Shown one piece after another: positions 1-47,487 of a stretch of DNA of 50,979 bases. How positions within the stretch are numbered: the first letter of the stretch is position 1; every line of letters starts with the position of its first letter. Source of the DNA: a phage; sequence record PZ445502.1, one strand, 5' to 3'. The notes under the pieces were generated by a model. That model was given only the letters and a program-made list of their open reading frames with translations, was not told the origin of the DNA and ran no database searches. The position numbers and the translations under genes are program-made.

Positions 1-1569
1 ATGATCATATGGGAAGATTTGACGGCAGCGCAAAAGCGAGCCATTAAAGAAATCAGTGAGCATTCATTCGAAAAGATGATCAGAATCTGGTTCCAGTTAT
101 TGCAGGGGCAAAAATTCCAGAGCAACTGGCATTTTAGCTTATTGTGCAGTGAGGTAGAGAAGATCATCAATGGAGAGTCGCAGAATGTGATTTTCAATAT
201 TACGCCAGGTAGCGGCAAGACTGAGATTTTCTCGATCCACATGTCACCCTACGCGTCATTGAAAAGCCGGAAGGTGAGAAACCTTAACCTTTCGTTTAGT
301 GATGGACTTGTCCAGCAAAACAGCAACAGGATAAAGGAGATTATCGGTTCTCCTGAGTGGCAAGAGCTATGGCCAGGAAAACTGGCAAAGGCGAGTGCAA
401 AAGATCTCATAGTTACGGATGGCGGCAAGGTTAAATTGCAAGTTAACTCACGATCTATTGGCGGACAGGTAACGGGTTTGCGTGGCGGCTATATGGACGA
501 TGGTTTTACTGGTATGCTGGTTCTTGACGATCCAGACAAGCCGGATGATATGCTTTCTAAGGTCAAGCGTGAGGCGATCCACATGAGGTTAAAAAACACA
601 GTGCGATCGCGTCGAATGAAAGACACTACGCCGATTGTTATGGTGCAACAGCGACTACACGTTAATGATTCCACCTGGTTTATGCTTAATGGCGGGATGG
701 GTGGTATTGAGTTTAAAGTTGTGAGTATTCCGGCGCTGGTTACGAAAGAATACCGCGAAACGCTTCCTGATTGGTTGAAGCCTGAATTTGATCGTGATGT
801 TCTGTCAAGTAAGCCAGTGATGATAGATGGCGTTGCTCATTATTCATTTTGGCCTGCAAAGGAAAGCGCGGAGGAATTGCTTGCATTGCGGAATGCAGAT
901 CCTTACACGTTCGCCAGCCAATACCAACAACAACCAATCGCGCTTGGCGGCAACGTGTTTAAAACAGAGTGGTTCCAGTATTACGGCAGAGGCGAAAAAT
1001 GCGCACTTCCTAAACCGGATCGCTTTGAATACACATTTATTACTGGAGATACAGCACAGAAGGCCGGAGAGCTTAACGACTATTCAGTTTTTTGTTATTG
1101 GGGGATGTATAAAAATCGCGTTTACTTCATTGATGGCATTCGCGGCAAGTGGGAAGCGCCAGATCTTGAATTAAATTTTATTGCCTTCGTTAATCAGTGC
1201 TGGAAGCGCAATAAGGAGTGTGGCAGCTTGCGACGTATTCACATTGAGGATAAGGCCAGCGGCACGGGTTTGATTCAGGGGGCCAAAAAGAAGATCCCGA
1301 TTGATATAAATCCCGTTCAGCGAAGCAATGACAAGGTAACGCGAGCAATGGACGCCGCGCCAGTAATGAGGGCCGGACGTGTGGCACTGCCAGAAAATCA
1401 TCCCATGCTGCCTGAGATACTGGCAGAGGTTGCAGCATTCACTTTTGATGATTCTCATCCCCATGATGATATTGTCGATAATATAGTTGATGCTGTTAAC
1501 GTCGAAATGAATTTGGCAGACGATCCGGTAGCAAGGATGAAAAAGCTGGCTGGTCTACGCAATAAATAG
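1..1569 (+). CDS. terL: terminase large subunit
   Basis: 522 aa; Walker A-like ITPGSGKTE and Walker B-like MLVLDDPDKPDD; first gene of the structural module; ATG at window position 1. Confidence 0.85.
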   Translation: MIIWEDLTAAQKRAIKEISEHSFEKMIRIWFQLLQGQKFQSNWHFSLLCSEVEKIINGESQNVIFNITPGSGKTEIFSIHMSPYASLKSRKVRNLNLSFSDGLVQQNSNRIKEIIGSPEWQELWPGKLAKASAKDLIVTDGGKVKLQVNSRSIGGQVTGLRGGYMDDGFTGMLVLDDPDKPDDMLSKVKREAIHMRLKNTVRSRRMKDTTPIVMVQQRLHVNDSTWFMLNGGMGGIEFKVVSIPALVTKEYRETLPDWLKPEFDRDVLSSKPVMIDGVAHYSFWPAKESAEELLALRNADPYTFASQYQQQPIALGGNVFKTEWFQYYGRGEKCALPKPDRFEYTFITGDTAQKAGELNDYSVFCYWGMYKNRVYFIDGIRGKWEAPDLELNFIAFVNQCWKRNKECGSLRRIHIEDKASGTGLIQGAKKKIPIDINPVQRSNDKVTRAMDAAPVMRAGRVALPENHPMLPEILAEVAAFTFDDSHPHDDIVDNIVDAVNVEMNLADDPVARMKKLAGLRNK

Positions 1570-1585
1570 CACTAATTGCTAAAAA
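1565..1585 (+). promoter_or_regulatory. variant copy of the conserved intergenic motif (AATAGCACTAATTGCTAAAAA), followed by TATATAAT and a hairpin
   Basis: overlaps the terL stop TAG; 4 mismatches to the consensus; -10-like box only ~8 nt downstream, so it does not fit the usual spacing. Confidence 0.4.
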
Positions 1586-1596
1586 GTTATATAATC

Positions 1597-1624
1597 AAGG
1601 CTGGATTTTTCCAGCCTTTTTTAT
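1597..1624 (+). terminator. rho-independent terminator-like hairpin between terL and portal
   Basis: AAGGCTGG-attttt-CCAGCCTT followed by a T-run. Confidence 0.5.
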
Positions 1625-1639
1625 TATGGAGATTTGACG

Positions 1640-2932
1640 ATGAGCGAAAAAACAAGGCTAGTTAAGGCCGATGGATACAACGAGATTTTCAAGGGTAGTA
1701 AGGGCAATGGGCGTGTAGAGTTGCCTTTCTTTATGCAGGGGTTCGAATACACCACGCACGCTGATTTTTACATTCGCGACGGCCTAGCAAAACGAATCAT
1801 CGACGTTGTTCCAGAAGAAATGGTGACGCCTGGATTTAATATTGATGGCGTGGAAGATGAGGAAAGTTTTAGATCTTTGTGGGATGAGAAGCGACTAAAC
1901 GATAAAATCATTGATGCGCTTTGCTGGTCGCGTCTTTTTGGTGGCGCTGCAATCGTGGCAATCGTCCAGGATGGCAGGGCGTTAAAGTCACCTGTAGCGC
2001 CCGGTGCAATCCTTGAAGATGTTCGCGTTTACGATCGCTTTCAGGTTCGCGTAGAAAAGCGCGAAACTAATCCACGCAAGGTGCGATATGGCGAGCCGTT
2101 AATTTACACCATTTCACCTGGTGCGGACTTGCCAGAATATCAGGTTCACTATTCGCGAGTCTGTATTATCGACGGTGAGCGGCTACCAAATCAGCGACGT
2201 CAATCAAATGATGGGTGGGGTGAATCGATCCTGAATAAGCGACTAGTTGAGGCCATTTGTGATTATAACTACTGCGAAAACTTAGCAACTCAATTGTTGC
2301 GACGTAAGCAACAGGCGGTATGGAAAGCTAAAGGTCTTGCTGATCTTTGTGATGATGATGATGGTGTTAACGCTGCACGTTTGCGCCTTGCTCAAGTTGA
2401 TGATGAGGGTGGCGTAGGCCGCGCGATCGGCATTGATGCGGAAGATGAGGAATATGATGTTTTAAATTCTGATATTTCCGGCGTCGATTCATTCCTGGAA
2501 AAGAAGATGGATCGCATTGTATCTCTTTCCGGCATCCATGAAATCATCCTCAAAAACAAGAACGTTGGCGGTGTTAGCGCGAGCCAAAACACGGCGCTTG
2601 AAACCTTCTACAAGCTGATCGATCGAAAGCGAAAGGAAGAATACAAACCAATCCTTGAATTTCTGATCCCGTTCCTGATTCAAGAGGAAGAATGGAGTAT
2701 TCAGTTTGCGCCGTTAAGCGTTCCCAGCGAAAAGGACCAGGCCGAGATCTTGAACAAGAATATTGATTCTTTGAGCAAGGCTATTGACGGTCAATTCATG
2801 GATGCAGATGAGGCACGCGACACATTGCGAGCCATTGCGCCTAACGTTAAACTAAAAGACGGCAATAACATTAAATTACCTGAGCAGGACGTAGAGCCGG
2901 AGCCAGGAACAACCGAGGGTAACGATCAATGA
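1640..2932 (+). CDS. portal protein
   Basis: 430 aa immediately after terL; GGAG 9 nt upstream of ATG 1640 (track begins at TTG 1634); acidic C-terminus. Confidence 0.75.
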   Translation: MSEKTRLVKADGYNEIFKGSKGNGRVELPFFMQGFEYTTHADFYIRDGLAKRIIDVVPEEMVTPGFNIDGVEDEESFRSLWDEKRLNDKIIDALCWSRLFGGAAIVAIVQDGRALKSPVAPGAILEDVRVYDRFQVRVEKRETNPRKVRYGEPLIYTISPGADLPEYQVHYSRVCIIDGERLPNQRRQSNDGWGESILNKRLVEAICDYNYCENLATQLLRRKQQAVWKAKGLADLCDDDDGVNAARLRLAQVDDEGGVGRAIGIDAEDEEYDVLNSDISGVDSFLEKKMDRIVSLSGIHEIILKNKNVGGVSASQNTALETFYKLIDRKRKEEYKPILEFLIPFLIQEEEWSIQFAPLSVPSEKDQAEILNKNIDSLSKAIDGQFMDADEARDTLRAIAPNVKLKDGNNIKLPEQDVEPEPGTTEGNDQ

Positions 2933-6165: not shown

Positions 6166-6192
6166 CTAATAGCATAAAAAAACATTGCACGT

Positions 6193-6209
6193 TTAACAAA
6201 AAGTGCTAT
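6193..6209 (+). promoter_or_regulatory. conserved motif, opposite orientation (TTAACAAAAAGTGCTAT), upstream of the major capsid gene
   Basis: exact core match; followed by a hairpin with T-run and then GGAGG before ATG 6256. Confidence 0.45.
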
Positions 6210-6215
6210 CATCTA

Positions 6216-6241
6216 GGCCGTTACATTTAACGGCCTTTTTT
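6216..6241 (+). terminator. hairpin plus T-run between motif and capsid gene
   Basis: GGCCGTTACATTTAACGGCC followed by TTTTTT. Confidence 0.45.
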
Positions 6242-9211: not shown

Positions 9212-9874
9212 ATGCACTTGCCTAATGGTTCTCAAATTTTCATCGGCGTTAATATGGGTGAGCCAATTAGCGCGACTCAAATCAGCAATGCTGATAATCC
9301 TGTTTTTACAACCGAAAACACTCAAAGCATCAAAAAAGGCGCTTATGTTCTTATTGAAACATCTTCTTGGGGCAAACTTGTTAGTCGAGTGCTTCGAGTT
9401 AAGGAAGTATCAGATAATGCAAGTGTTACTCTTGAGGGTGTTAGCACTAAAGATACAAACGTATTTCCAGAAGGGCAGAACACAGCAACTTTCCGAGAAG
9501 TGAAATCTTGGGTAGAGGTTCCTTGCGTACAGGATCTTGCGCAGGACGGCGGCGAGCAACAGTATTACACTTATCAGTGTTTGGCTGATGACCAGGAGCA
9601 GCAGTTACCGACCTACAAGAGCGCGGTTTCTCTTACCTACACTTTCGCTCATGAATATGATAACCCGATTTATCCGATCTTGCGCGAGGCTGAGGAATCC
9701 GGCGACGTAACCGCTTTGCGTATGTACGTGCCGAAAGCTAAAGAGATGCGTTGCTGGGCTGGCGTATTGTCTTTTAATGACATTCCGCAAACCACTATGA
9801 ACGAAATGGAAACTGTTTCCCTTTCTGTATCTCTGAAAGGCCGATTCACGTTCTTACCTTCCGACGTTAAGTAA
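9212..9874 (+). CDS. major tail protein
   Basis: 220 aa; AGGAGG SD; followed by a strong terminator and then the chaperone and tape measure genes. Confidence 0.6.
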   Translation: MHLPNGSQIFIGVNMGEPISATQISNADNPVFTTENTQSIKKGAYVLIETSSWGKLVSRVLRVKEVSDNASVTLEGVSTKDTNVFPEGQNTATFREVKSWVEVPCVQDLAQDGGEQQYYTYQCLADDQEQQLPTYKSAVSLTYTFAHEYDNPIYPILREAEESGDVTALRMYVPKAKEMRCWAGVLSFNDIPQTTMNEMETVSLSVSLKGRFTFLPSDVK

Positions 9875-9878
9875 AACA

Positions 9879-9900
9879 AGGGGCGTTGCGCCCCTTTTTT
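9879..9900 (+). terminator. rho-independent terminator
   Basis: GGGGCGTTGCGCCCC hairpin followed by TTTTTT. Confidence 0.65.
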
Positions 9901-9942
9901 CATTCCTGTAAAATCAATCTATCAAATAAATTAATTCCACTT

Positions 9943-9959
9943 TTAACAAAAAGTGCTAT
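9943..9959 (+). promoter_or_regulatory. conserved motif, opposite orientation, directly upstream of the SD of the tail chaperone gene
   Basis: TTAACAAAAAGTGCTAT followed by AAGGAG and ATG 9974. Confidence 0.45.
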
Positions 9960-9973
9960 AAGGAGATCTTAAG

Positions 9974-15814: not shown

Positions 15815-15845
15815 AAAAATACCCGCCTTGCGCGGGTTTTTTTGT
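15813..15845 (+). terminator. rho-independent terminator
   Basis: ACCCGCCTTGCGCGGGT hairpin followed by a T-run. Confidence 0.55.
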
Positions 15846-15892
15846 GCATTTATAATGTGCAAACCAAGAAACAGCACAAAAGGTTAAAAGTC

Positions 15893-18800
15893 ATGGCTAA
15901 ATATATGATAAGCGGCAGTAAGGGCGGAAGCAAAAAGCCATACGTGCCAAAAGAGATGGAAGATAACCTGATCTCGATAAACAAGATTAAAGTTTTGCTG
16001 GCTGTATCTGATGGCGAGTGCGATCCAGATTTCACGTTGCGCGATCTTTATCTTGATGATGTTCCGGTTATTGCCAGCGATGGCACTGTTAACTACGAGG
16101 GAGTTACGGCTGAATATCGACCGGGTACGCAGACGCAAGATTACATCCAGGGTTTTACTGACACATCAAGTGAGGTGACAGTTGCAAGAGATATTACCGG
16201 AGACAATCCTTATGTTATTTCTGTTACAAATAAAAATCTATCTGCGGTAAGAATAAAGATCCTGATGCCAGTAGGCATAAAACAGGAGGATAACGGCGAT
16301 CTTGTTGGCGTAAGGGTTGAGTATGCCGTAGATATGGCTATTGATGGCGGTTCTTATAGCGAGGTTATGAGAGATGTAATTGACGGCAAGACAAGATCAG
16401 GATACGACCGCAGCAGAAGGATTGATCTTCCTAAGTTTGATGAGCGCGTTTTAATCCGAGTAAAGCGACTGACTCCAGACAGCACATCTTCAAAGGTAAC
16501 TGATAAAATCAAGCTGCAAAGTTACGCTGAGGTTGTTGATGCAAAATTCCGTTATCCTCTGACTGGCCTTGTATTCGTAGAATTTGACAGTGAATTGTTT
16601 CCTACGCAAATCCCTAACATTTCTATAAAAAAGAAATGGAAGATTATTAATGTGCCAAGCAACTATGATCCAATATCAAGAGAATATCACGGGTCATGGG
16701 ATGGGACTTTTAAAAAAGCGTGGTCAAATAATCCCGCTTGGGTTCTTTATGATCTGGTGACAAATCAGCGTTATGGACTTGATCAGCGAGAGTTAGGAAT
16801 ACAGATCGACAAGTGGAGCTTATACGAGGCGGGCGTTTACTGTGATCAGAAAGTTCCAGACGGTAAGGGCGGTACTGAGCCTCGCTACCTATGCGATGTG
16901 GTGATTCAGAATCAAGTTGAGGCTTATCAGCTAATCCGTGACATTTGCTCAATCTTTCGCGGAATGAGTTTTTGGAATGGTGAGAGCTTATCAATCGTGA
17001 TTGATAAGCCACGCGATCCATCATACGTGTTTACTAATGAAAACGTCATCAACGGTGATTTTCAGTACACAACCGCAAGCGAAAAAAGCATGTACACGCA
17101 GTGTAACGTGACGTTTGACGACGAACAAAACATGTATCAGCAGGACGTAGAGGGTGTTTTTGATACTGAGGCGGCATTACGATTTGGATACAATCCAACA
17201 AGCATTACAGCGATCGGGTGCACACGCAGGAGCGAAGCGAATCGTCGCGGTCGGTGGGTTTTGAAAACAAACCTTAGAAGCACTACTGTAAACTTTGCTA
17301 CCGGACTAGAGGGGATGATTCCATCAATAGGTGATGTTATTGCTATCGCTGATAATTTTCAGAGTAGCAACCTAACGTTAAACCTATCGGGCCGAGTAAT
17401 GGAAGTTTCAGGATTGCAGGTTTTCGTTCCGTTTAAGGTTGATGCTCGCCCTGGTGATTTTATTATCATCAACAAGCCGGACGGCAAGCCAGTTAAGCGC
17501 ACGATCTCAAAGGTTAGCGCAGACGGAAAAACCATAGAGTTAAATATTGGATTTGGTTTTGATGTTAAGCCTGATACTGTTTTTGCGATTGACCGTACTG
17601 ATCTTGCGTTGCAGCAATACGTTGTGACAACTATCAGCAAGGGTGATGACGAAAACGAGTTTACCTATTCAATCACGGCTGTGGAGTACGATCCGAACAA
17701 ATACGACGAGATTGATTATGGCGTAAACATTGATGACAGGCCGACTTCAATTGTTCAGCCTGACGTGATGGCAGCGCCTGAGAACGTTAAGATCTCATCT
17801 TATTCTCGCGTCGTGCAGGGCGTTAGCGTTGAGACTATGGTTGTTTCATGGGATAAGGTTCCTTACGCATCGCTTTATGAAATGCAGTGGCGAAAAGGTG
17901 ATGGTAACTGGCTGAATACGCCGCAGACCGCTAACAAAGAGATAGAGGTAGAAGGGATTTATTCAGGCAACTACCAAGTAAGGGTGAGATCCGTTTCTGC
18001 AAGCGGTAACGCTTCCCCGTGGTCAAAGATTGCAACCGCCACTCTGACAGGTAAAGTTGGCGAGCCAGGAGCGCCGATTAATCTTACGGCTTCTGATAAT
18101 GAAGTTTTTGGCATTCGTGTCAAATGGGGTATGCCGGAAGGATCAGGCGATACGGCTTACATTGAGCTTCACCAATCGCCAGACGGAACGGTTGAAAACT
18201 CAAGTCTGCTTACGCTGATTCCATATCCTCAATATGAGTATTGGCATAGCACGTTACCAGCGGGGCAAGTTGTATGGTATAGAATCCGCAGCGTTGACAG
18301 AATAGGCAACGTTTCCAGTTGGACTGACTTTGTTCGCGGTATGGCGTCAGATGATGTTGAATCTGTTTTGGGCGACATTCTGGACAAGATTTTTGATACA
18401 GAAGCTGGTCAAGAAATCAAAGAGAACGCCATAGACAGCGCCAATAAAATCAAAGACCAGGCACAATCAATCATACAGAACGCGTTGGCAAATGATGCAG
18501 ATGTGAAGTGGACGCGAGTGCAAAACGGAAAGCGCAAGGCTGAATATGGTCATGCTCTTGAGCTTATCGCCAATGAAACAGAAGCGCGCGTAACTCAAAT
18601 CGAAGAGTTAAGGGCATCAATTGATGGCGAGATAACATCAAGCATCAAGACAGTGCAGGAGGCAATTGCCACTGAATCAGAGACGCGAGCGACTCAAATT
18701 CAGCAGCTTGATTCTAAATTCACAAAAGAAATCGACGGCGTGCGCAAGGATACTTCTGCAAGCATTAGCGATGTAAGGCAGACAATCACTAACGAGTCAG

Positions 18801-20694: not shown

Positions 20695-20740
20695 ACTATA
20701 CACGATCTTGGGCATCGCGTTTAGCAAAAAGTGCTATTTG
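20695..20740 (-). promoter_or_regulatory. motif-class promoter (motif, ~21 nt, TATAGT) reading toward the lipoprotein operon
   Basis: minus strand reads AATAGCACTTTTTGCTAAAC then 21 nt then TATAGT. Confidence 0.5.
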
Positions 20741-21105
20741 TTATTTTTTGTTTTCCGGTGTTATCGAATTTAAGACGGCGTAAATTTAGCGCAAATTTTA
20801 TCCAACACAAGAACAATAAACAATCAATAAAATAGATATATACATATAAAATCAATAGTTTATTTATTTATGTATGTATATTTGTTTTTTCTTGTTGTCT
20901 GCGTTTCTTGTGGTTTTGGTTGTTTGTGGTGATTTTTCTTTCTGAGTATCTGTATGTGCCATCATTCATGTGTATGTATATAATCCGGCGTATCTGAGAG
21001 AACAGGGGAACAAGAAAAATAACACATATTAATCATTAACTTATGAGTCAAATCTGTTTTCTTGCCATCTGAGAACGTTTAGAAAACAGAAAAAACAAAA
21101 CAGCT

Positions 21106-21134
21106 ATTGACTAAATCAACCAAATGGCTACAAT
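21106..21134 (+). promoter_or_regulatory. sigma70-like promoter (TTGACT-N16-TACAAT)
   Basis: near-consensus hexamers at canonical spacing about 30 nt upstream of ATG 21165. Confidence 0.5.
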
Positions 21135-21164
21135 GCACGCATAAAGCAACAAGGAGCATTAAAG

Positions 21165-24506: not shown

Positions 24507-26482
24507 TATACAATTTCCCCCAATTGATGATCTGTTAGTGCCTTGTGCCATATACGGAAGTTTCTAACGTGCCCGAAAAGATGGCGTTCGCCCGTAGTTG
24601 TTTGTCCGCCAATCCTTATAGTAGCCGTTGATTCTATGTATCTCCATTCCGTTTTTGTTTCGCTTGATATTCTGGCATTACTTACACAGCAATTATTGTA
24701 ATCACTCTTTACTCTCATTCCCATGATCATCTTTTTTAGTTTTGCATTCTCGTAAACCCTTCTGTTTGATCCACCTATATCGCAATAAGGGAATCCATCA
24801 TTATCGCCCTCGGCAGATCCGAAAGCAAGAATAATTGCCGCACCAGATTGATGACCTACAGTATCAAAAACACGAGGCGCAGCATTTGGCGTTATACTCC
24901 AGTTTTTATTAGCTTCCACAAGAACTGTAAACGGCAAATTGTAAAGGTTGTTTTTTATTGGCACTGAAACCATATCGCTTGCCCTTGTTACTGGATTTTC
25001 TTCTGTAATTATGAAAGAAGAGGCACAAGATCCTCCCTCAACTTGTGGAGTTGCAATATAAATGTAATCATCCGCGCCAGTGCCCACTCCTTTTGCCGGG
25101 GCATACTGAACCATTCCACCTATCATATTTTCTGTATCAAGTGCCTTAATTGTCGCCTCAAAAAAGATCCATTTGCTTGCTTCATCTTTAACAGCCCTTG
25201 CAGTAATACGATTTGCAGCGACGCCAGTTTTTTCAATTGATAAATCTGTCAGATTTACGTAAGCATCACCCAAAAATGCATAAGCAGATCCATCGTAGTT
25301 TTCAAATCGTAATCGGCATCTTAAATTTGGAGTCCCACTTTGCGCCCTGCATGATATGGTTACATACTTTTCATTTCCTGTTACATCAAAACCTCTACTG
25401 CCGGAAACGGTTACTATGTTAATCGCTGAAGTTTGCCCTACCATTTCTGGTTTTAATGTAAATTTTGCGTACTGGAATCCGAAATTATCCACACCTGATC
25501 TAGCTAAGATCATATTTGATGACTTGTTCCATTTTGAAGGATTGACGCTATTTATAAGAAGGTTTGTTCTTTGCCCCTCAATGAGCAGACCATCCTTTTC
25601 AAATCTAGGTTCATCAATAGCAGCATTAGTAAGCACCCCAGACTTATTAATGTAAGTAGCGGTTGATGCGCGTTTAAACTTAACAATCTTGTCACCTGGC
25701 ATCGTGATCTCATCGTCACCTATAACAATCTTTTTATATGACGGAGAGAATCCGGTGATCATATCCAGGGAATCATTAAACGGTATCCACACGTCCGGCA
25801 ACGGTTGCAATAAATCTTTGTAAGGTTCTGCGGCCTGCTTTGCGTATTCCTCCGCTTGATCTCGCGCACTTTCAGCTCCTGCCTTTGCAGTGTTCGCAGC
25901 GTCACGCGCGGATTCAGCGCCTTTTCTTGCAGTTTCAGCGCCAGTCTTTGCAGTGTTTGCAGCGTCGCGCGCGGATTCAGCGGCAGCCTTTGCAGTGTCA
26001 GCACCTTTCTTGCTATTCTCTGCATTTGTTGCGCTTGTCTTTGCGTTATTCTCGCTAGTTTTAGCTGCCTTCTGGCTTGCTGCGGCTGCGTCAGCATTTG
26101 TCTTTACGTCTTCCTGGATCTTCTGTAGCTTATCCCAATCAAAATCCTTGATGATCTCAATAAATCCAGCAAACTCCGATTCCTTCCCCTGGTAATAACG
26201 CAACGTTTCCGCTACGTCTTGCGCAAGACCGTCAACCGTTAACGAGTCATGAAGCAAGATCAGGTAATTTGTCTTCTGTACTACCGCGCCGCCAGTAGTA
26301 ATTGCGCGAATGCTTGTATCGCTAATCACTTCTGTAATCACAGCAGCTTGCAAAGGTTGAGAAAGAAAGAAAATAGTTGCACCTGGGCGAATCAAGGTTA
26401 ATTGCTCACGCCATTTTGTACCGTAACCAGTTACATATCCTTGCGCGTCCATAGACGCTTGGCCTTGTCTGTAAATCGCCAT
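24506..26482 (-). CDS. long tail fibre protein with Ala-rich repeat region
   Basis: 658 aa from ATG 26482 with AGGAGG SD (track begins at 26506); N-terminal region with repeated AKxxAExARDAANTAK units; beta-rich C-terminal part. Confidence 0.55.
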   Translation of the reverse strand: MAIYRQGQASMDAQGYVTGYGTKWREQLTLIRPGATIFFLSQPLQAAVITEVISDTSIRAITTGGAVVQKTNYLILLHDSLTVDGLAQDVAETLRYYQGKESEFAGFIEIIKDFDWDKLQKIQEDVKTNADAAAASQKAAKTSENNAKTSATNAENSKKGADTAKAAAESARDAANTAKTGAETARKGAESARDAANTAKAGAESARDQAEEYAKQAAEPYKDLLQPLPDVWIPFNDSLDMITGFSPSYKKIVIGDDEITMPGDKIVKFKRASTATYINKSGVLTNAAIDEPRFEKDGLLIEGQRTNLLINSVNPSKWNKSSNMILARSGVDNFGFQYAKFTLKPEMVGQTSAINIVTVSGSRGFDVTGNEKYVTISCRAQSGTPNLRCRLRFENYDGSAYAFLGDAYVNLTDLSIEKTGVAANRITARAVKDEASKWIFFEATIKALDTENMIGGMVQYAPAKGVGTGADDYIYIATPQVEGGSCASSFIITEENPVTRASDMVSVPIKNNLYNLPFTVLVEANKNWSITPNAAPRVFDTVGHQSGAAIILAFGSAEGDNDGFPYCDIGGSNRRVYENAKLKKMIMGMRVKSDYNNCCVSNARISSETKTEWRYIESTATIRIGGQTTTGERHLFGHVRNFRIWHKALTDHQLGEIV

Positions 26483-26497
26483 TTGTAAAATCCTCCT

Positions 26498-26516
26498 AAA
26501 TAGCACTTTTTGCTAA
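26498..26516 (+). promoter_or_regulatory. conserved motif, directly upstream (opposite orientation) of the SD of the long fibre gene
   Basis: plus strand AATAGCACTTTTTGCTAA; minus strand reads TTAGCAAAAAGTGCTAT then TTAGGAGG then ATG. Confidence 0.45.
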
Positions 26517-26547
26517 TGACAATGCAGATAATAGCATTTTCAAGTGC

Positions 26548-26580
26548 AAAAAAAAACCCCGCATAAGCGGGGCAATACTA
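26548..26580 (-). terminator. rho-independent terminator downstream of primase
   Basis: minus strand CCCCGCTTATGCGGGG followed by a T-run. Confidence 0.6.
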
Positions 26581-27573: not shown

Positions 27574-28050
27574 TTAGCTATTTGTGCTGTTATCACCTTT
27601 GTAGAATCGTCCGCCTGGTTCGTAGTCTGAATTCTTGACTACGCGCAACATTTCGTATTTGTCGCAACGGGTAGTAAGAGGCTTACCGTTAGAATCAAAC
27701 CGCAGATCTGGACGACAAAATGATGCGCGGTATCCTTTGCATCCATTATATTTGTAGTCGTTATGCACCTTTTGTGCTCCAGCGGCTGAAATCATACCAC
27801 GCTTTCGCCATTGGTTAACGACTTGCTGAGATACGCGTAGACGTCGAGCCATAGCAGGAACACCGCCATAATACTCGATCAGAATATCCAAGCGAGATTT
27901 CAGGCTTGCTTTTACCTCATCTCGCAGGATAAGAAATCCGGTTCGGTGTTTTCGTGGCTTTTTGTCTTTACCTCGTCGCGTTCCGTTGTTACCGTTAATA
28001 GTGCGCTTGTCGATCTCACCCGTAGACACCGCAATTCGTGCATCTTTCAT
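27574..28050 (-). CDS. putative HTH DNA-binding protein
   Basis: 158 aa; helix-turn-helix-like segment VPAMARRLRVSQQVVNQWRKRG; GAGGTGA SD. Confidence 0.4.
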   Translation of the reverse strand: MKDARIAVSTGEIDKRTINGNNGTRRGKDKKPRKHRTGFLILRDEVKASLKSRLDILIEYYGGVPAMARRLRVSQQVVNQWRKRGMISAAGAQKVHNDYKYNGCKGYRASFCRPDLRFDSNGKPLTTRCDKYEMLRVVKNSDYEPGGRFYKGDNSTNS

Positions 28051-28061
28051 CTAGTCACCTC

Positions 28062-28105
28062 ATAGCATTTTTTGTTAAAACAGTTTATTGTAATGAGTCT
28101 ATTAT
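28062..28105 (+). promoter_or_regulatory. motif-class promoter (motif, ~21 nt, TATTAT) for the helicase operon
   Basis: ATAGCATTTTTTGTTAAAAC then TATTAT; the same element lies just upstream of the SD of the divergent HTH gene. Confidence 0.5.
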
Positions 28106-28137
28106 ATACTCCAAATGGCATTTTTTAAAGGTTTAAG

Positions 28138-30135
28138 ATGATTCCAAATATCGAAAAACAAATATCAGCGTTAGGCGAGGCAGTAATAAAAAGCATCCAA
28201 GAGCGATTCACGGTTGGCAATATAGTGCCTTATCCTTATCAGTGCGTTGCGTATGCCGAGATCGCAAAGCGCATGAAAAACTATGAGCATCCTTTCTTTG
28301 TTAAGGCTTCTGTGTCGGCTGGCAAAACATTGATGTTTGCGATGGTTGCGGCGCAATGCCGAAAAATGGGATTGAAAATGATGGTCCTTGCTCGCCAGGC
28401 TGAAATTGTTGATCAGGATTCGGAAGAGATCAGCAATCTTGGAGTGCCAAACTCAATCTATTGCGCCGGACTGAAAACAAAAAGCGCATACTTTCCGATC
28501 GTGGTCGGTTCTGAGGGCACTGTAGTAAACGGATTGTTTAAGTCGTTAGGTGATTATGTTCCGCACGTTATCGGTATTGATGAATGTCACCAGGTGGATT
28601 GGGAGGATCTCGCGGACGCGATAGAAAATAATGAATCTTACCAGCAGATGACCACTAAGAAGGATTTGCCAGTGCTGATTGGAGAAGAACAGCAATTTGA
28701 TTCCAATGGCGATCCAATGTTCGGAACAGGACGCACACAGTACACCGTAATAATCATGGAAATGATGCGCAGGTGTCGCGAGGCATACGGGCACGAATTG
28801 CGAATATTCGGTATGACTGGATCTGAATTTCGCGGCGTGGTTCCAATACTGGTTGAAGATAAGAACAAAAAGGGATTCTGGCGTGAGCAGGTGACTAACA
28901 TAGACACAAACTACTTAATCAAATTCGGTTCGGTAGTGCCAACAAACTTCGGCGACGTAGGCGACCTGGGTTATGACCTTTCAGAGTTCGAAGCCAGTAG
29001 CGAGGATGGCGTTTCAGACTTTGACGCTAAAACATTGCGCAAGATGGAAGAAAAGATCCATCAAGACGCAACAATGACACAGAAAATCATGGCTAAAGTC
29101 CATGAGATATGCAAAGACAGGAACGGAGTTTTAGTTACATGCGCAGGGGAAAGACACTGCAAGGAGGCCGCCGCCGCACTGCCGCCAGGCGTTGAATACA
29201 GGATCATAACTGGCAAGACTGGAGATAATCAGCGTAAAGAGTGGCTGAGGGAGGCATACGAGGGAAAAGTAAAATACATCTTCCAGGTACAGGCGCTTAC
29301 CACTGGCGTTAACGTTCCGTTTTGGGATACTTCGGTAATACTGAGAAAGATAGGATCTCTAACATTGCTTATCCAGCTTTTGGGGCGCGGTATGCGACTG
29401 CTTAAGCAATGGCACATTGAGCAGGGATTCAAGAAAAAAGACCATCTTGTATTGGATTTTGCCGGTACTATGGATGAGTTAGGGGATTTGTATTTCGATC
29501 CAATCCTTGAGCAAGCGCAATTCCAAAAGAGATTTACAAACGGGAAAGAGCCTAAGACTTGTCCGATATGTGGAACGCTAAACAGCTTTTACGCTCGCCG
29601 ATGTATGCACGTAGACGATAACGGGAAGAGATGCGAGCATTTTTGGACTTACAGAATTTGCGAGGACCAGGTAGATCCGAGAACGAAAAAGATAATCAAG
29701 CGCGGTTGCGGAACAAAAAACGACGTAGTGGCGAGAGTATGCCGTTGTTGCGATATTTCTCTTGTCGATCCTAACGAGAAGTTAAGCGGTAAGCACTACA
29801 CCAAAAACGATTGGTGCAACGTTAAATCTTTCCGCGTTGATATGACGAAAAACCAGAAAGGAATTATTTTTTGCTATGAGCTTGAGGCCAACGGCGACAC
29901 GTTCAAGGCATACGAAAGATTTTTCCCTGAGTCAGAAAGCAACATTTGCAGGACGATATGGAGAAAAATAGCATTGCAGCACATACCGGATCGCAAGATT
30001 GCTGGTATGGTGGCGAGCTATAGAAATGCGCGTAAAATAATGTCATACGCTCATCACATCATGCCGCCTGTACGAGTAACGCATCGCAAAAACGGCAAAG
30101 GTGAGGATAACATTGCAAAACGGGAGTTTGTTTAA
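28138..30135 (+). CDS. SF2 DNA helicase with C-terminal Cys-rich zinc-binding region
   Basis: 665 aa; Walker A SAGKT; DECH box; multiple CxxC pairs near the C-terminus. Confidence 0.75.
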   Translation: MIPNIEKQISALGEAVIKSIQERFTVGNIVPYPYQCVAYAEIAKRMKNYEHPFFVKASVSAGKTLMFAMVAAQCRKMGLKMMVLARQAEIVDQDSEEISNLGVPNSIYCAGLKTKSAYFPIVVGSEGTVVNGLFKSLGDYVPHVIGIDECHQVDWEDLADAIENNESYQQMTTKKDLPVLIGEEQQFDSNGDPMFGTGRTQYTVIIMEMMRRCREAYGHELRIFGMTGSEFRGVVPILVEDKNKKGFWREQVTNIDTNYLIKFGSVVPTNFGDVGDLGYDLSEFEASSEDGVSDFDAKTLRKMEEKIHQDATMTQKIMAKVHEICKDRNGVLVTCAGERHCKEAAAALPPGVEYRIITGKTGDNQRKEWLREAYEGKVKYIFQVQALTTGVNVPFWDTSVILRKIGSLTLLIQLLGRGMRLLKQWHIEQGFKKKDHLVLDFAGTMDELGDLYFDPILEQAQFQKRFTNGKEPKTCPICGTLNSFYARRCMHVDDNGKRCEHFWTYRICEDQVDPRTKKIIKRGCGTKNDVVARVCRCCDISLVDPNEKLSGKHYTKNDWCNVKSFRVDMTKNQKGIIFCYELEANGDTFKAYERFFPESESNICRTIWRKIALQHIPDRKIAGMVASYRNARKIMSYAHHIMPPVRVTHRKNGKGEDNIAKREFV

Positions 30136-31603: not shown

Positions 31604-31643
31604 CACTTTTTGTTAAAACGCCCGGCCTAGTGTCGGGCATAAT
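31599..31643 (+). promoter_or_regulatory. motif-class promoter (motif, 22 nt, CATAAT)
   Basis: GCCCGGC...GTCGGGC inverted repeat in the spacer. Confidence 0.5.
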
Positions 31644-34817: not shown

Positions 34818-34862
34818 AATATACCCGACACAAGGTCGGGAGTTTTAACAAAAAATGCTATT
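34818..34862 (-). promoter_or_regulatory. motif-class promoter (motif, 22 nt, TATATT)
   Basis: CCCGAC...GTCGGG inverted repeat in the spacer. Confidence 0.5.
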
Positions 34863-37652: not shown

Positions 37653-37699
37653 GATTATGCCAGGTTTTTACACCTGGCTTTTAACAAAAAGTGCTATTT
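37653..37699 (-). promoter_or_regulatory. motif-class promoter (motif, 22 nt, CATAAT)
   Basis: GCCAGGT...ACCTGGC inverted repeat abutting the -10 box. Confidence 0.5.
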
Positions 37700-42547: not shown

Positions 42548-42587
42548 CACTTTTTGTTAAAACGCCAGGCGCGAAGCCTGGCATAAT
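42543..42587 (+). promoter_or_regulatory. motif-class promoter (motif, 22 nt, CATAAT)
   Basis: GCCAGGC...GCCTGGC inverted repeat abutting the -10 box. Confidence 0.5.
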
Positions 42588-43006: not shown

Positions 43007-43050
43007 ATAGCACTTTTTGTTAAAACTCAAAAGCGATAACCAGGCATAAT
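43005..43050 (+). promoter_or_regulatory. motif-class promoter (motif, 22 nt, CATAAT)
   Basis: shares CCAGGCATAAT with the promoters near 42543 and 37653. Confidence 0.5.
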
Positions 43051-43252
43051 ACACACATAGACGGGCGGCAAGGATTGCTGCGGGAGAGGAGTAACGCAGG
43101 GGCTTGATCGAAGTGTCAGGATTCCCAACCGTGAGGCCAGAACTATCACACTCGCCACCAGGCAGAACGCTAGATAGGTCACTGAGCTGAGGCTACCGAC
43201 GAAGTGAAGCCCGTCACCAAAGATTAAACGGTTATTTATGTTAAAGGGGTTA

Positions 43253-46445: not shown

Positions 46446-47036
46446 ATGAAGCGAGACATTATTATCCTTAATGGGCCGCCTGGTTGTGGAAAGGACACTA
46501 TTGCAGCTTACCTAACGGGCCATCGTTACCCAGCGGTTAAGGCGTCATTCAAACAGCCGATGTTCGATATTGCGTTTTCCATGCTGGGCGTGTACCGATA
46601 CGATGAATTTATGGACCTGTACAACGACCGAGAACAAAAAGAAAGGCCTCAAGTTATCTTAGGCGGCAAGTCACCTCGACAATTCATGATCTGGATTAGC
46701 GAGGATGTAATGAAGCCAGTTTTTGGAGATCACTATTTCGGGCGTCGAATGGTTGAAGAGATTCACGAGATGTACCGAGATTTGGCGGTTGTGATCAGTG
46801 ATGGCGGATTCCCCGAAGAAATCAAGCCGCTCGTTAAGGCGGGGCATGAGGTGCATATTTGCCGATTGCATCGCGACGGCTTCACGTTTGCTGGCGATTC
46901 GAGAGACTACATTGACCTGAGCGGTTATCACTATCGAATCCATCACTATGACTTCCACTTGCAGGACGGCAAGCCGGAACTGGCTGTAAACGAGATCGTC
47001 AATGCAGTCAAATGGAAGCACACACAGATTAAATAG
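46446..47036 (+). CDS. P-loop nucleotide kinase (dNMP-kinase-like)
   Basis: 196 aa; N-terminal P-loop ILNGPPGCGKDT. Confidence 0.5.
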   Translation: MKRDIIILNGPPGCGKDTIAAYLTGHRYPAVKASFKQPMFDIAFSMLGVYRYDEFMDLYNDREQKERPQVILGGKSPRQFMIWISEDVMKPVFGDHYFGRRMVEEIHEMYRDLAVVISDGGFPEEIKPLVKAGHEVHICRLHRDGFTFAGDSRDYIDLSGYHYRIHHYDFHLQDGKPELAVNEIVNAVKWKHTQIK

Positions 47037-47077
47037 CACGAATTGCTAAACGCGGGGTTATCGGCCCCGCTATAATG
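47032..47077 (+). promoter_or_regulatory. motif-class promoter, GAATTG variant (22 nt, TATAAT)
   Basis: GCGGGG...CCCCGC inverted repeat abutting the TATAAT. Confidence 0.5.
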
Positions 47078-47106: not shown

Positions 47107-47487
47107 ATGGTTAACATCCGAAAAATCCGCGTCGGCACTAAATTCTTAGTTACTTATGCCATTCCAGATAGCGGAATGAAGAAGGGCCAGATTGTTAAGG
47201 TTGATAGCAAAAGATCCGGAATCCCTAGTATCAATGGCTATCTAATCAATAGAGATCTTGGATTCGACGGCTTCGCTATCCGTGCGCTTGAGGGTATTGT
47301 TGCCACTCTTAAGCGAATCACTAATCATCGCGGCTGCCCAATCAAGACGATTAAAGCGCCAGTAAATTACGGCAAACTGGATAATCGTCGAATCCGCCGC
47401 CTGGCGCGTAACGCGTTAAAATTCCGTGGCGTAGGCGATGATTTCTACTATGGATACAAGAGGATTGCGCGCAATGCTGGGAAATAA
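47107..47487 (+). CDS. hypothetical protein
   Basis: 126 aa ORF. Confidence 0.4.
   Translation: MVNIRKIRVGTKFLVTYAIPDSGMKKGQIVKVDSKRSGIPSINGYLINRDLGFDGFAIRALEGIVATLKRITNHRGCPIKTIKAPVNYGKLDNRRIRRLARNALKFRGVGDDFYYGYKRIARNAGK

What the first reader, a model, noticed from the sequence alone, without database searches (positions are those of the whole stretch)
9943..9973. The same motif in opposite orientation sits directly upstream of the Shine-Dalgarno of four genes
Reading in gene sense, TTAACAAAAAGTGCTAT lies 2-4 nt before the SD of the tail chaperone gene (9943), the long tail fibre gene (minus strand near 26498) and the HTH gene (minus strand near 28062). It also lies ~45 nt before the major capsid SD (6193), separated by a hairpin. 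In this orientation the proposed promoter would fire antisense, into the upstream late gene or its terminator. Either the element is a bidirectional or antisense promoter, or its transcribed copy in the 5' UTR acts as a translational operator for structural genes.
Basis: partly seen in the sequence, partly recalled or inferred. Interest (0 to 1): 0.65.

Follow-up and report, generated by a model that had tools for sequence, protein, structure and literature searches.

The report
Host marbox sites inside phage late promoters
The repeated motif in this T1-like coliphage matches the binding site (marbox) of the host stress regulators MarA, SoxS and Rob. The four "backwards" copies lie inside or face-to-face with ordinary promoters of structural genes, which suggests a switch between two modes of transcription.

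Summary
The window is a T1-like phage, 99.7% identical to Escherichia phage tunus. The motif is the family's known 21-nt repeat, whose function is unassigned in the literature. Its reverse complement, ATAGCACTTTTTGTTAAAAC, matches the published marbox consensus 15/15. It scores in the top fifth of sites bound in vivo by MarA/SoxS/Rob/RamA. Fifteen copies sit 17-18 nt upstream of a -10 hexamer with no -35, the same geometry as the E. coli micF class II promoter. No AraC-type protein is encoded, so host MarA/SoxS/Rob is the inferred reader.

The four reversed copies are not one thing:
- **28062** is the class II promoter of the divergent helicase operon. Its -10 overlaps the -10 of the HTH gene's sigma-70 promoter.
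- **9943** drives a conserved antisense class II promoter (TAnnnT at exactly 18 nt in 19/19 distinct relatives). It faces a conserved sigma-70 promoter for the tail-assembly genes.
- **6193** fills the spacer of a conserved capsid sigma-70 promoter and has no antisense -10.
- **26500** is a weak marbox at about +2 to +21 of an extended -10 fibre promoter.

I infer reciprocal control: the regulator turns on early and middle promoters and hinders these four. An RNA operator is unsupported. Nothing was tested experimentally.

The parts
9940..9959 (-). 20-bp marbox ATAGCACTTTTTGTTAAAAG (read on the minus strand). The finding's motif is 9943-9959.
   Evidence: The 15-mer core matches GCAHWWWWTGYYAAA exactly. 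It scores 16.3 bits, about the 84th percentile of 87 ChIP-defined sites. It is conserved in T1 and the E. coli-phage clades.
9916..9921 (-). -10 hexamer TAGATT of the antisense class II promoter, 18 nt from the marbox. The inferred start is about 9908-9909, reading leftward.
   Evidence: TAnnnT is present in 19/19 distinct relatives at exactly 18 nt. Positions 3-5 and the 18-nt spacer vary freely. The spacing is the same as at micF.
9886..9914 (+). Sense sigma-70 promoter of the tail chaperone and tape-measure genes: -35 TTGCGC (9886-9891, in the terminator loop), 17 nt, -10 TAAAAT (9909-9914). The inferred start is about 9921.
   Evidence: TTGC[GC]C-17-TA[ACG]AAT is conserved in 18-19 of 19 distinct relatives. 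It falls below the simple scan threshold in this window (8/12).
9878..9896 (.). Bidirectional terminator hairpin after the major tail gene. It would end the antisense RNA at about 40 nt.
   Evidence: It is called on both strands. The RNA fold of 9915-9868 on the minus strand gives z = -3.4.
6190..6209 (-). 20-bp marbox ATAGCACTTTTTGTTAAACG, filling the spacer of the capsid promoter.
   Evidence: The core matches the consensus exactly. A marbox with 0 mismatches is present in 35 of 68 distinct relatives. No antisense -10 is present: T6 in 2/68.
6171..6212 (+). Sense sigma-70 capsid promoter: A-tract, -35 TTGCAC (6185-6190), 16-nt spacer containing TGC (6204-6206), -10 TATCAT (6207-6212). The inferred start is about 6219.
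   Evidence: 68 of 72 distinct relatives fit TTGnnn-16 nt (with TGn)-TAT..T. The KP36 record annotates the homologous site as a promoter. The scan tool does not call it here because the -35 matches only 3/6.
6215..6236 (+). Terminator-like hairpin plus T-run, beginning 3 nt after the capsid -10. The inferred start falls inside its 5' arm.
   Evidence: Called. The read-through RNA folds strongly (-18.6 kcal/mol, z = -2.4). RNA starting at 6219 keeps only a 5-bp stem.
26500..26519 (+). Weak marbox ATAGCACTTTTTGCTAATGA, at about +2 to +21 of the fibre promoter.
   Evidence: It scores 10.3 bits, the 39th percentile of ChIP sites. The AAT in place of AAA is conserved in relatives. No -10 lies at 17-18 nt.
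26528..26536 (-). Extended -10 promoter TGCTATTAT of the long tail fibre gene (ATG at 26482). It follows the primase terminator at 26556-26573.
   Evidence: In the clades that carry the fibre-site marbox, AATG[CA]TA[TGA]AAT or TATTAT is conserved. The TLS-like clade has TTGCAT-17-CATAAT instead. The terminator is called.
28062..28105 (+). Class II promoter of the helicase operon: marbox ATAGCATTTTTTGTTAAAAC (28062-28081), 18 nt, -10 TATTAT (28100-28105). The helicase ATG is at 28138.
   Evidence: It is conserved in 17 distinct relatives including T1, with a TAnnAT hexamer at 17-18 nt.
28101..28129 (-). Sigma-70 promoter of the HTH regulator gene: TTTAAA-17-TATAAT. Its -10 (28101-28106) overlaps the helicase -10 by 5 bp on the other strand.
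   Evidence: Called by the scan tool at 10/12. TLS P57 and the KP36 'promoter' are the homologous sites. The overlap is conserved.

Best explanation
**What the motif is.** The motif is a marbox, the asymmetric 20-bp site read by the monomeric host regulators MarA, SoxS and Rob (RamA in Klebsiella). In its usual orientation it replaces the -35 element of about 15 class II promoters that drive the non-structural genes.

**What the four reversed copies are.** They are marboxes that fall inside the RNA-polymerase footprint of a sigma-70-type promoter reading the other way.
- **28062:** the marbox promoter serves the helicase operon. Its -10 overlaps, on the opposite strand, the -10 of the HTH gene promoter.
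- **9943:** the marbox drives a non-coding antisense promoter. Its -10 abuts the -10 of the tail-assembly promoter, and its roughly 40-nt RNA ends at the bidirectional terminator.
- **6193:** the marbox occupies the spacer, the TG of the extended -10 and the first 3 nt of the -10 of the capsid promoter.
- **26500:** a weaker marbox covers about +2 to +21 of the fibre promoter.

**Inferred mechanism.** Regulator-loaded polymerase uses the marbox promoters. In doing so, or by the regulator binding alone, it excludes polymerase from these four sigma-70 promoters. The same factor therefore turns early and middle genes on and holds the capsid, tail-assembly, fibre and regulator promoters down. Relief may come when replicating phage DNA titrates the regulator.

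**Shown versus inferred.** The sequence match, the geometry and the conservation are shown. The binding protein, the transcription starts and the sign of regulation are inferred.
For: **Marbox identity**
- GCACTTTTTGTTAAA matches the published consensus GCAHWWWWTGYYAAA 15/15.
- The window has 15 exact and 8 one-mismatch copies, against 2.4 +/- 1.6 expected.
- A weight matrix built from 87 Salmonella ChIP-seq sites scores the phage copies 15.2-18.6 bits, roughly the 78th-100th percentile of real sites.
- At 15 bits or more there are 19 sites here, 19 in T1, 15 in KP36 and 0 in lambda. Randomised sequence gives 0.6.
- Some copies are identical to sites bound in vivo, for example GCACTTTTTGCAAAA.
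- Outside the 15-mer used to pick the sites, information stays high over the three 5' flanking bases and falls to background beyond the 20-bp box.

**Promoter geometry**
- The 20-mer is followed by 17-18 nt and then TAnnnT in the window, T1 and KP36.
- At micF the distance is 18 nt and the box is centred at -41.5.
- No AraC-type protein is encoded.

**Reversed sites**
- Chaperone site: 19/19 conservation of both opposed -10 hexamers at fixed spacing.
- Capsid site: the promoter pattern fits 68/72 distinct relatives, with the marbox in the spacer, and KP36 annotates the site as a promoter.
- HTH/helicase site: the opposed -10 hexamers are conserved in 17 distinct sequences.
Against: **No experiment bears on this.**
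- Binding, transcription starts and the direction of regulation are all untested.

- Rob is largely aggregated and inactive in standard conditions, and MarA and SoxS need induction, yet T1-like phages are propagated on laboratory E. coli K-12.
- The phage copies are far more uniform than host marboxes, including at positions the host consensus leaves free. This could point to a different, phage-encoded reader.

**The four reversed sites do not all fit equally well.**
- A marbox inside a core promoter can also activate, as at flgBP2 at -16 to -30.
- In KP36-like phages the capsid promoter persists while its marbox decays to 3-4 mismatches. The marbox is therefore dispensable for that promoter.
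- The fibre copy is a poor marbox: 10.3 bits here and 7.8 bits in relatives.
- The sense promoters at 6193 and 9943 fall below the simple scan threshold in this window.
Confidence: 0.55

Rival explanations
1. The motif is read by a phage-encoded DNA-binding protein, not by host MarA/SoxS/Rob. That protein could be the conserved Cro/YdaS-like HTH protein at 27574-28050 or an unannotated small early protein. The reversed copies would then be operators of the stoperator type.
For: - The phage copies are almost identical to one another, more so than host marboxes.
- A conserved regulator gene sits next to one copy.
- The TLS authors proposed stoperators or enhancer sites.
- Most early proteins have no known function.
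Against: - The site is asymmetric, with two blocks one helical turn apart. That fits a two-HTH monomer, not a Cro-like dimer.
- No AraC-like protein is detectable.
- The match to the host consensus, to ChIP sites and to micF spacing would have to be coincidence.
- Variation among copies sits at the positions that the marbox consensus leaves free.
Confidence: 0.15
2. The transcribed copy in the 5' UTR acts at the RNA level on translation or stability of the adjacent gene.
For: - At 9943, 26500 and 28062 the motif lies in the inferred 5' UTR, 0-2 nt from the Shine-Dalgarno sequence.
- The fibre copy is a poor marbox yet is conserved in sequence in three clades.
Against: - The capsid copy lies upstream of the inferred capsid start.
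- The UTR folds are not better than shuffles, and Rfam gives no match.
- The distance from motif to ATG varies from 12 to 23 nt among chaperone-site relatives.
- Adjacency to the Shine-Dalgarno sequence follows from the face-to-face promoter geometry in a compact intergenic space.
Confidence: 0.1
3. Marboxes inside late promoters activate rather than hinder them, for example by distorting DNA next to the -10 as MarA does at flgBP2. All phage promoters would then depend positively on the regulator.
For: - At flgBP2 the marbox lies at -16 to -30 in reverse orientation and the promoter is activated.
- yadG is activated from a reverse-orientation site that overlaps its -35.
- The capsid marbox core lies at about -27 to -13.
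Against: - flgBP2 is a defective sigma-28 promoter. The phage capsid promoters have TTG at the -35, an extended -10 and an A-tract, so they need no help.
- The marbox GCAC block covers the extended -10 TG.
- The KP36-like promoter keeps working elements without the marbox.
- pbpG, a sigma-70 promoter with a marbox in its spacer, is repressed.
Confidence: 0.12
4. The A/T-rich motif is an UP element for the alpha subunit C-terminal domain of RNA polymerase, with no specific regulator. The reversed copies would be by-products.
For: - The TLS authors raised the resemblance.
- The centre of the motif is T5/A4-rich and lies at about -45 to -32.
Against: - The least variable positions are G/C ones. 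In one search's table G and A of GCAC are invariant, though those columns were part of the site-selection pattern; TLS's independently found repeats show the same conserved ATAGCAC block.
- UP elements lie upstream of a -35, which these promoters lack.
- This reading does not explain the fixed 18-nt distance or the conservation of the reversed copies.
Confidence: 0.05

Closest known systems
Marbox and class II MarA/SoxS/Rob-dependent promoters (E. coli micF)
   Same: - The site is an asymmetric 20 bp with GCAC and YYAAA blocks.
- The phage box is identical to the micF box ACAGCACTGAATGTCAAAAC at 15 of 20 positions.
- Both are in forward orientation and replace the -35.
- Both lie 18 nt from the -10 hexamer, centred near -41.5.
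   Different: - The sites are in a virulent phage genome, at a density of 19 strong sites per 51 kb.
- They are much more uniform than host sites.
- Binding and regulator dependence are untested.
The 21-nt direct repeat of phage TLS, said to be present also in T1, Rtp and Rogue1 (PMC11447400)
   Same: It is the same element: aaATAGCACnnnTTGnTAAAA, found at 21 sites. TLS DR7 is the capsid-site copy on the opposite strand.
   Different: That paper left the function open (stoperator, enhancer site or UP element). It described the repeats as lying in the direction of transcription. It did not relate them to the marbox or analyse the reversed copies.
Promoters repressed by MarA/SoxS/Rob through a marbox inside the core promoter (pbpG; also rob, purA and hdeA from my own knowledge)
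   Same: The capsid-site marbox lies in the promoter spacer, as at pbpG.
   Different: The phage site also overlaps the extended -10 TG and the first bases of the -10. Repression is inferred, not shown.
Face-to-face promoter pairs and short antisense RNAs in phages: coliphage 186 pR/pL, P22 Pant/Psar, lambda oop RNA (from my own knowledge)
   Same: Opposed promoters whose polymerases cannot both be accommodated. A short non-coding RNA ends at a terminator.
   Different: - Here the -10 hexamers abut (1 bp apart) or overlap (5 bp).
- The choice of direction would be set by a host activator that replaces -35 recognition.
T4 middle promoters (MotA box with AsiA; from my own knowledge)
   Same: An activator box replaces the -35 hexamer of sigma-70 promoters across a phage genome.
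   Different: In T4 the activator is encoded by the phage and its box is centred at -30. Here the inferred activator is a host protein and the box is centred near -41.

Membership tests
Marbox (MarA/SoxS/Rob/RamA binding site) | Asymmetric site matching GCAHWWWWTGYYAAA within a 20-bp box | tested here: met
   There are 15 exact and 8 one-mismatch copies, against 2.4 expected. Flanking information falls to background at the box edges. The fibre copy (26503) has one mismatch at a nearly invariant A.
Marbox (MarA/SoxS/Rob/RamA binding site) | Scores within the range of sites bound in vivo | tested here: met
   Scored with a weight matrix from 87 ChIP-seq sites, the copies reach 15.2-18.6 bits (roughly the 78th-100th percentile). 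The copy at 26503 scores 10.3 bits (39th percentile). Lambda has 0 sites at 15 bits or more.
Marbox (MarA/SoxS/Rob/RamA binding site) | Bound by MarA, SoxS or Rob protein | not testable with these tools
   This needs EMSA, footprinting or ChIP.
Class II MarA/SoxS/Rob promoter | Forward marbox overlapping a poor -35, at the micF distance from a -10 hexamer | tested here: met
   Met for 15 forward copies, for the helicase promoter at 28062 and for the antisense promoter at 9943.
Class II MarA/SoxS/Rob promoter | The same feature, tested at the 6193 and 26500 copies | tested here: not met
   At 6193 the hexamer at 18 nt is TATTAG, and T6 is present in only 2/68 relatives. At 26500 it is TTTCAA.
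Class II MarA/SoxS/Rob promoter | Transcription depends on the activator | not testable with these tools
   This needs in vitro transcription or mutant hosts.
Marbox-repressed core promoter (pbpG type) | Marbox overlaps the spacer or -10 of a sigma-70 promoter | tested here: met
   At 6193 the box (6190-6209) lies between the -35 (6185-6190) and the -10 (6207-6212). The pattern fits 68/72 relatives. Whether it represses was not tested.
RNA operator or structured 5' UTR element | Stable or conserved RNA structure, or a known RNA family | tested here: not met
   Fold z-scores are -0.3, -0.9 and +2.0. Rfam finds no match at gathering thresholds.
T1-family 21-nt direct repeat (TLS DR1-18) | Consensus aaATAGCACnnnTTGnTAAAA, in intergenic positions | tested here: met
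UP element | A/T-only tract upstream of a -35 hexamer | tested here: not met
   The G and C positions of the GCAC block are among the least variable (TLS repeats). The hexamer at the -35 position (AAAACN) matches TTGACA at 2 of 6 positions (sequence).
L5-type stoperator | Many copies bound by a phage repressor, acting on elongation in one orientation | tested here: inconclusive
   No candidate repressor with matching specificity was found. Late-region copies occur in both orientations.

The most novel reading that the evidence does not exclude
T1-like phages have tied their whole transcription programme to the host's MarA/SoxS/Rob stress regulators. About 15 class II marbox promoters drive early and middle genes. 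Marboxes embedded in, or opposed to, the sigma-70 promoters of the capsid, tail-assembly, fibre and regulator genes give reciprocal control. Phage development would then respond to antibiotic, bile or oxidative signals. Titration of the regulator by replicating phage DNA could act as the early-to-late timer.
Probability: 0.35. Interest if true: 0.85.

Novelty: new variant of a known kind. Interest (0 to 1): 0.7.

Why it matters
How T1-like phages order their gene expression is unresolved in the literature I could search. They encode no RNA polymerase or sigma factor, only a handful of sigma-70 promoters are predicted, and the family-wide repeat has had no assigned function.

Reading the repeat as a marbox gives a concrete and cheap set of tests: Rob, MarA and SoxS binding, triple-mutant hosts, and chemical inducers.

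If the reading is right, infection by a very common family of coliphages and Klebsiella phages is coupled to the mar/sox/rob regulon that governs antibiotic tolerance. That bears on phage-antibiotic combinations, on phage behaviour in bile-rich gut conditions, and on T1 contamination of cultures.

The opposed -10 arrangement would also be a compact example of an activator choosing the direction of transcription.

Tried and rejected
- **T7-type single-subunit polymerase promoter.** The resemblance ...GTGCTATAAGGAGA was rejected. No polymerase gene is present (the TLS paper says the same), and most copies point away from genes in that orientation.
- **Sigma-54 -24/-12 reading of TAGCAC-N-TTGC.** The invariant GG is absent and the spacing is wrong (reading of the sequence).
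- **TTGTTA as a sigma-70 -35.** The spacer to the -10 would be 21-22 nt, which is too long.
- **A sense extended -10 (TGCTAT...) in every reversed copy.** Only the capsid site keeps T6 and a -35 at the right distance.
- **A protein-coding target for the 9943 antisense promoter.** The 77-aa ORF at 9670-9903 loses its ATG in relatives such as L005.
- **A phage-encoded MarA-like protein.** A Pfam scan of 50 ORFs and a tblastn search with MarA, SoxS and Rob found none.
- **Literature linking T1-like phages to marbox, MarA, SoxS or Rob.** None was found in the searchable library. Subscription papers, including the 2004 T1 and 2006 Rtp genome papers, could not be read.

Full report
**What the window is.** The 50,979-bp window is essentially a complete genome of a T1-like siphovirus. 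It is 99.7% identical over the structural region to Escherichia phage tunus (Drexlerviridae, Tempevirinae, Warwickvirus). Structural genes run rightward from 1 to about 19.5 kb. The rest is replication, recombination, methylase, lysis and many small genes, arranged in blocks on both strands.

**Checking the observation.**
- TTAACAAAAAGTGCTAT is exact at 6193 and 9943 on the plus strand.
- It has one mismatch at 26500 and at 28062 on the minus strand.
- There are 18 copies at 3 or fewer mismatches, against 0.25 expected.
- In gene sense it ends 0-2 nt before the ribosome-binding sites of the tail chaperone (ATG 9974), long fibre (ATG 26482) and HTH (ATG 28050) genes.
- It ends 46 nt before the capsid ATG (6256), with a terminator-like hairpin at 6215-6236 in between.
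- The description holds.

**The common orientation.** Fifteen copies, read as ATAGCACTTTTTGTTAAAAC, share one layout:
- They lie between genes on the same strand, often with the upstream gene's TAG stop codon inside ATAG.
- They are followed by 17-18 variable nucleotides, then a -10 hexamer (CATAAT, TATAGT, TATAAT and similar).
- A short leader, a ribosome-binding site and an ATG follow.
- No usable -35 is present: the hexamer at that position, AAAACN, matches TTGACA at 2 of 6 positions.
- T1 and Klebsiella phage KP36 have the same arrangement, with 22 and 16 sites.
- The repeat is already described for TLS as a 21-nt direct repeat, aaATAGCACnnnTTGnTAAAA. Its function was left open (stoperator, enhancer site or UP element), and it is said to be present also in T1, Rtp and Rogue1.

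**Identity of the motif.**
- The core GCACTTTTTGTTAAA matches the published marbox consensus GCAHWWWWTGYYAAA at 15 of 15 positions.
- The window holds 15 exact and 8 one-mismatch matches, against 2.4 +/- 1.6 expected.
- The phage copies score 15.2-18.6 bits, roughly the 78th to 100th percentile of those real sites. The copy at 1569 equals the matrix optimum.
- At 15 bits or more there are 19 sites here, 19 in T1, 15 in KP36 and none in lambda. Randomised sequence gives 0.6.
- Several phage variants are identical to sites bound in vivo.
- Information content remains high over the three 5' flanking bases, which were not used in selecting the sites, and falls to background beyond the 20-bp box.
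- The E. coli micF promoter is the textbook class II case. It has the box ACAGCACTGAATGTCAAAAC, 15 of 20 positions identical to the phage box.
- The micF box lies 18 nt before TAGAAT and is centred at -41.5. The phage promoters have this same geometry.
- Class II promoters are defined by a forward marbox overlapping a poor -35.
- The phage encodes no detectable AraC-family protein. A Pfam scan of 50 ORFs found none. A tblastn search with MarA, SoxS and Rob gave a best E-value of 0.4. My MarA query was checked against PDB entry 1BL0.
- The neighbouring HTH protein is Cro/YdaS-like, which does not suit an asymmetric two-block site.
- I therefore infer that host MarA, SoxS or Rob reads these sites. 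This is an inference from sequence, not a demonstration.

**Site 28062.**
- The intergenic region is divergent. On the plus strand the marbox (28062-28081) is followed by 18 nt and TATTAT (28100-28105), then the helicase ATG at 28138.
- It is an ordinary class II promoter.
- On the minus strand the scan tool calls TTTAAA-17-TATAAT (28129-28101) for the HTH gene.
- The two -10 hexamers overlap by 5 bp on opposite strands.
- The overlap is conserved in 17 distinct related sequences, including T1 and TLS-like phages.
- The HTH transcript therefore begins upstream of the marbox and carries its complement just before its ribosome-binding site.

**Site 9943.** Nineteen distinct related sequences, including T1, share a fixed layout:
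- the terminator of the major tail gene, with TTGC[GC]C in its loop;
- 17 nt;
- TA[ACG]AAT on the sense strand (19/19);
- 1 nt;
- TAnnnT on the antisense strand (19/19, with positions 3-5 varying freely);
- exactly 18 nt of unconserved sequence;
- the marbox.

This is the signature of two functional -10 hexamers, a sense sigma-70 promoter for the tail-assembly genes and an antisense class II promoter. Their polymerases cannot both be bound.
- In this window the antisense start (about 9908) is followed by the hairpin at 9896-9878, which the tool also calls as a terminator on the minus strand. The product would be about 40 nt.
- The 77-aa ORF there is not conserved.
- The TLS-like and KP36-like clades lack this marbox.

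**Site 6193.**
- Sixty-eight of 72 distinct related sequences fit an A-tract, TTGnnn, a 16-nt spacer containing TGn, and TAT..T (TATCAT, TATATT, TATTAT or TATTCT).
- The KP36 record annotates the homologous stretch as a promoter.
- The reversed marbox occupies the last base of the -35, the whole spacer including the extended -10 TG, and the first three bases of the -10.
- Its core has no mismatch in 35 distinct sequences from the E. coli-phage clades and T1, and 1-2 mismatches in a clade with 56% capsid identity. It decays to 3-4 mismatches in KP36-like phages, where the promoter elements remain.
- The hexamer at the antisense position lacks T6 in 66/68 sequences, so there is no antisense promoter.
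- The hairpin begins 3 nt after the -10, so the promoter's own transcripts would lack part of the 5' arm.
- In this window the -35 matches only 3/6, and the simple scan does not call the promoter.

**Site 26500.**
- Downstream of the primase terminator (26573-26556) there is an extended -10, TGCTATTAT (26536-26528). Equivalents occur in the related clades, and the TLS-like clade has TTGCAT-17-CATAAT instead.
- The marbox begins 8 nt after the -10, at about +2 to +21.
- It ends in AAT rather than AAA. It scores 10.3 bits here and 7.8 bits in relatives.
- It is absent from several clades, and no -10 lies at 17-18 nt.
- This is the weakest of the four cases.

**Other late-region copies.**
- A forward marbox lies 4-5 nt before the TATAAT of the portal promoter (1566-1585). 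It is conserved in many clades but absent in T1 and KP36.
- A forward marbox-like site lies 2 nt before the ATG of the large tail-tip gene (15871-15890).
- Orientation is therefore not uniform. What is shared is the position, within about -37 to +38 of a sigma-70 promoter.

**Mechanism.**
- Shown: the sequence identity, the geometry and the conservation.
- Inferred: regulator-loaded polymerase uses the marbox promoters, because in class II complexes the regulator displaces sigma region 4 from the -35.
- Inferred: at the opposed pairs (28062, 9943) this excludes polymerase from the sigma-70 promoter.
- Inferred: at 6193 and 26500, regulator binding alone would clash with polymerase.
- The sign of regulation is not certain. 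MarA activates the sigma-28 promoter flgBP2 from -16 to -30.
- A timer based on titration of the regulator by replicating phage DNA is speculation.

**Caveats.**
- No experimental data bear on this.
- Rob is largely aggregated under standard conditions.
- The phage copies are unusually uniform.
- Related sequences share ancestry, so the counts are not independent events.
- Older subscription papers on T1 and Rtp could not be read.

Noticed in passing
window 1566-1640: A forward marbox (ATAGCACTAATTGCTAAAAA, the optimum of the ChIP-derived matrix) lies 4 nt before a TATAAT. That TATAAT is followed at once by a terminator-like hairpin and the portal gene. [quoted passage not shown]
   Followed up: partly
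window 15840-15900: A forward marbox-like site, ACAGCACAAAAGGTTAAAAG (14.8 bits), lies 14 nt after a TATAAT and 2 nt before the ATG of the large tail-tip gene. It is the counterpart of TLS repeat DR8.
   Followed up: partly
window 47033-47076: An additional class II promoter missed by the 17-mer search: ATAGCACGAATTGCTAAACG, 18 nt, TATAAT, upstream of the gene at 47107. It is the 'GAATT' variant of the repeat.
   Followed up: yes
window 43045-43240: The marbox promoter at 43007 is followed by about 190 nt with no ORF of 50 aa or more before the next gene. Rfam gives no match. It could be a long leader or an unannotated small RNA or peptide.
   Followed up: partly
window 20740-21160: An AT-rich non-coding gap of about 430 nt lies between divergent operons. 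It holds many short direct and inverted repeats and is a possible replication origin or regulatory region.
   Followed up: partly
window 28113-28123 (minus strand): The palindrome AAATGcCATTT sits in the spacer of the HTH gene promoter. AATGCCATTT is kept in this clade, the L085-type clade and TLS-like phages, but not in the L089-L095 clades or T1. It is a candidate operator for the Cro/YdaS-like regulator.
   Followed up: no
window 31620-31638, 34824-34841, 37660-37677, 42564-42582 and others: The 18-nt spacers between marbox and -10 often contain GC-rich hairpins. T1's record annotates several such hairpins as rho-independent terminators. Their role is unexplained.
   Followed up: no
window 30551, 31600, 34845, 37007, 37681, 42544, 45523: The TAG stop codon of the upstream gene lies inside the ATAG that begins the marbox, so coding sequence and promoter overlap.
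   Followed up: partly
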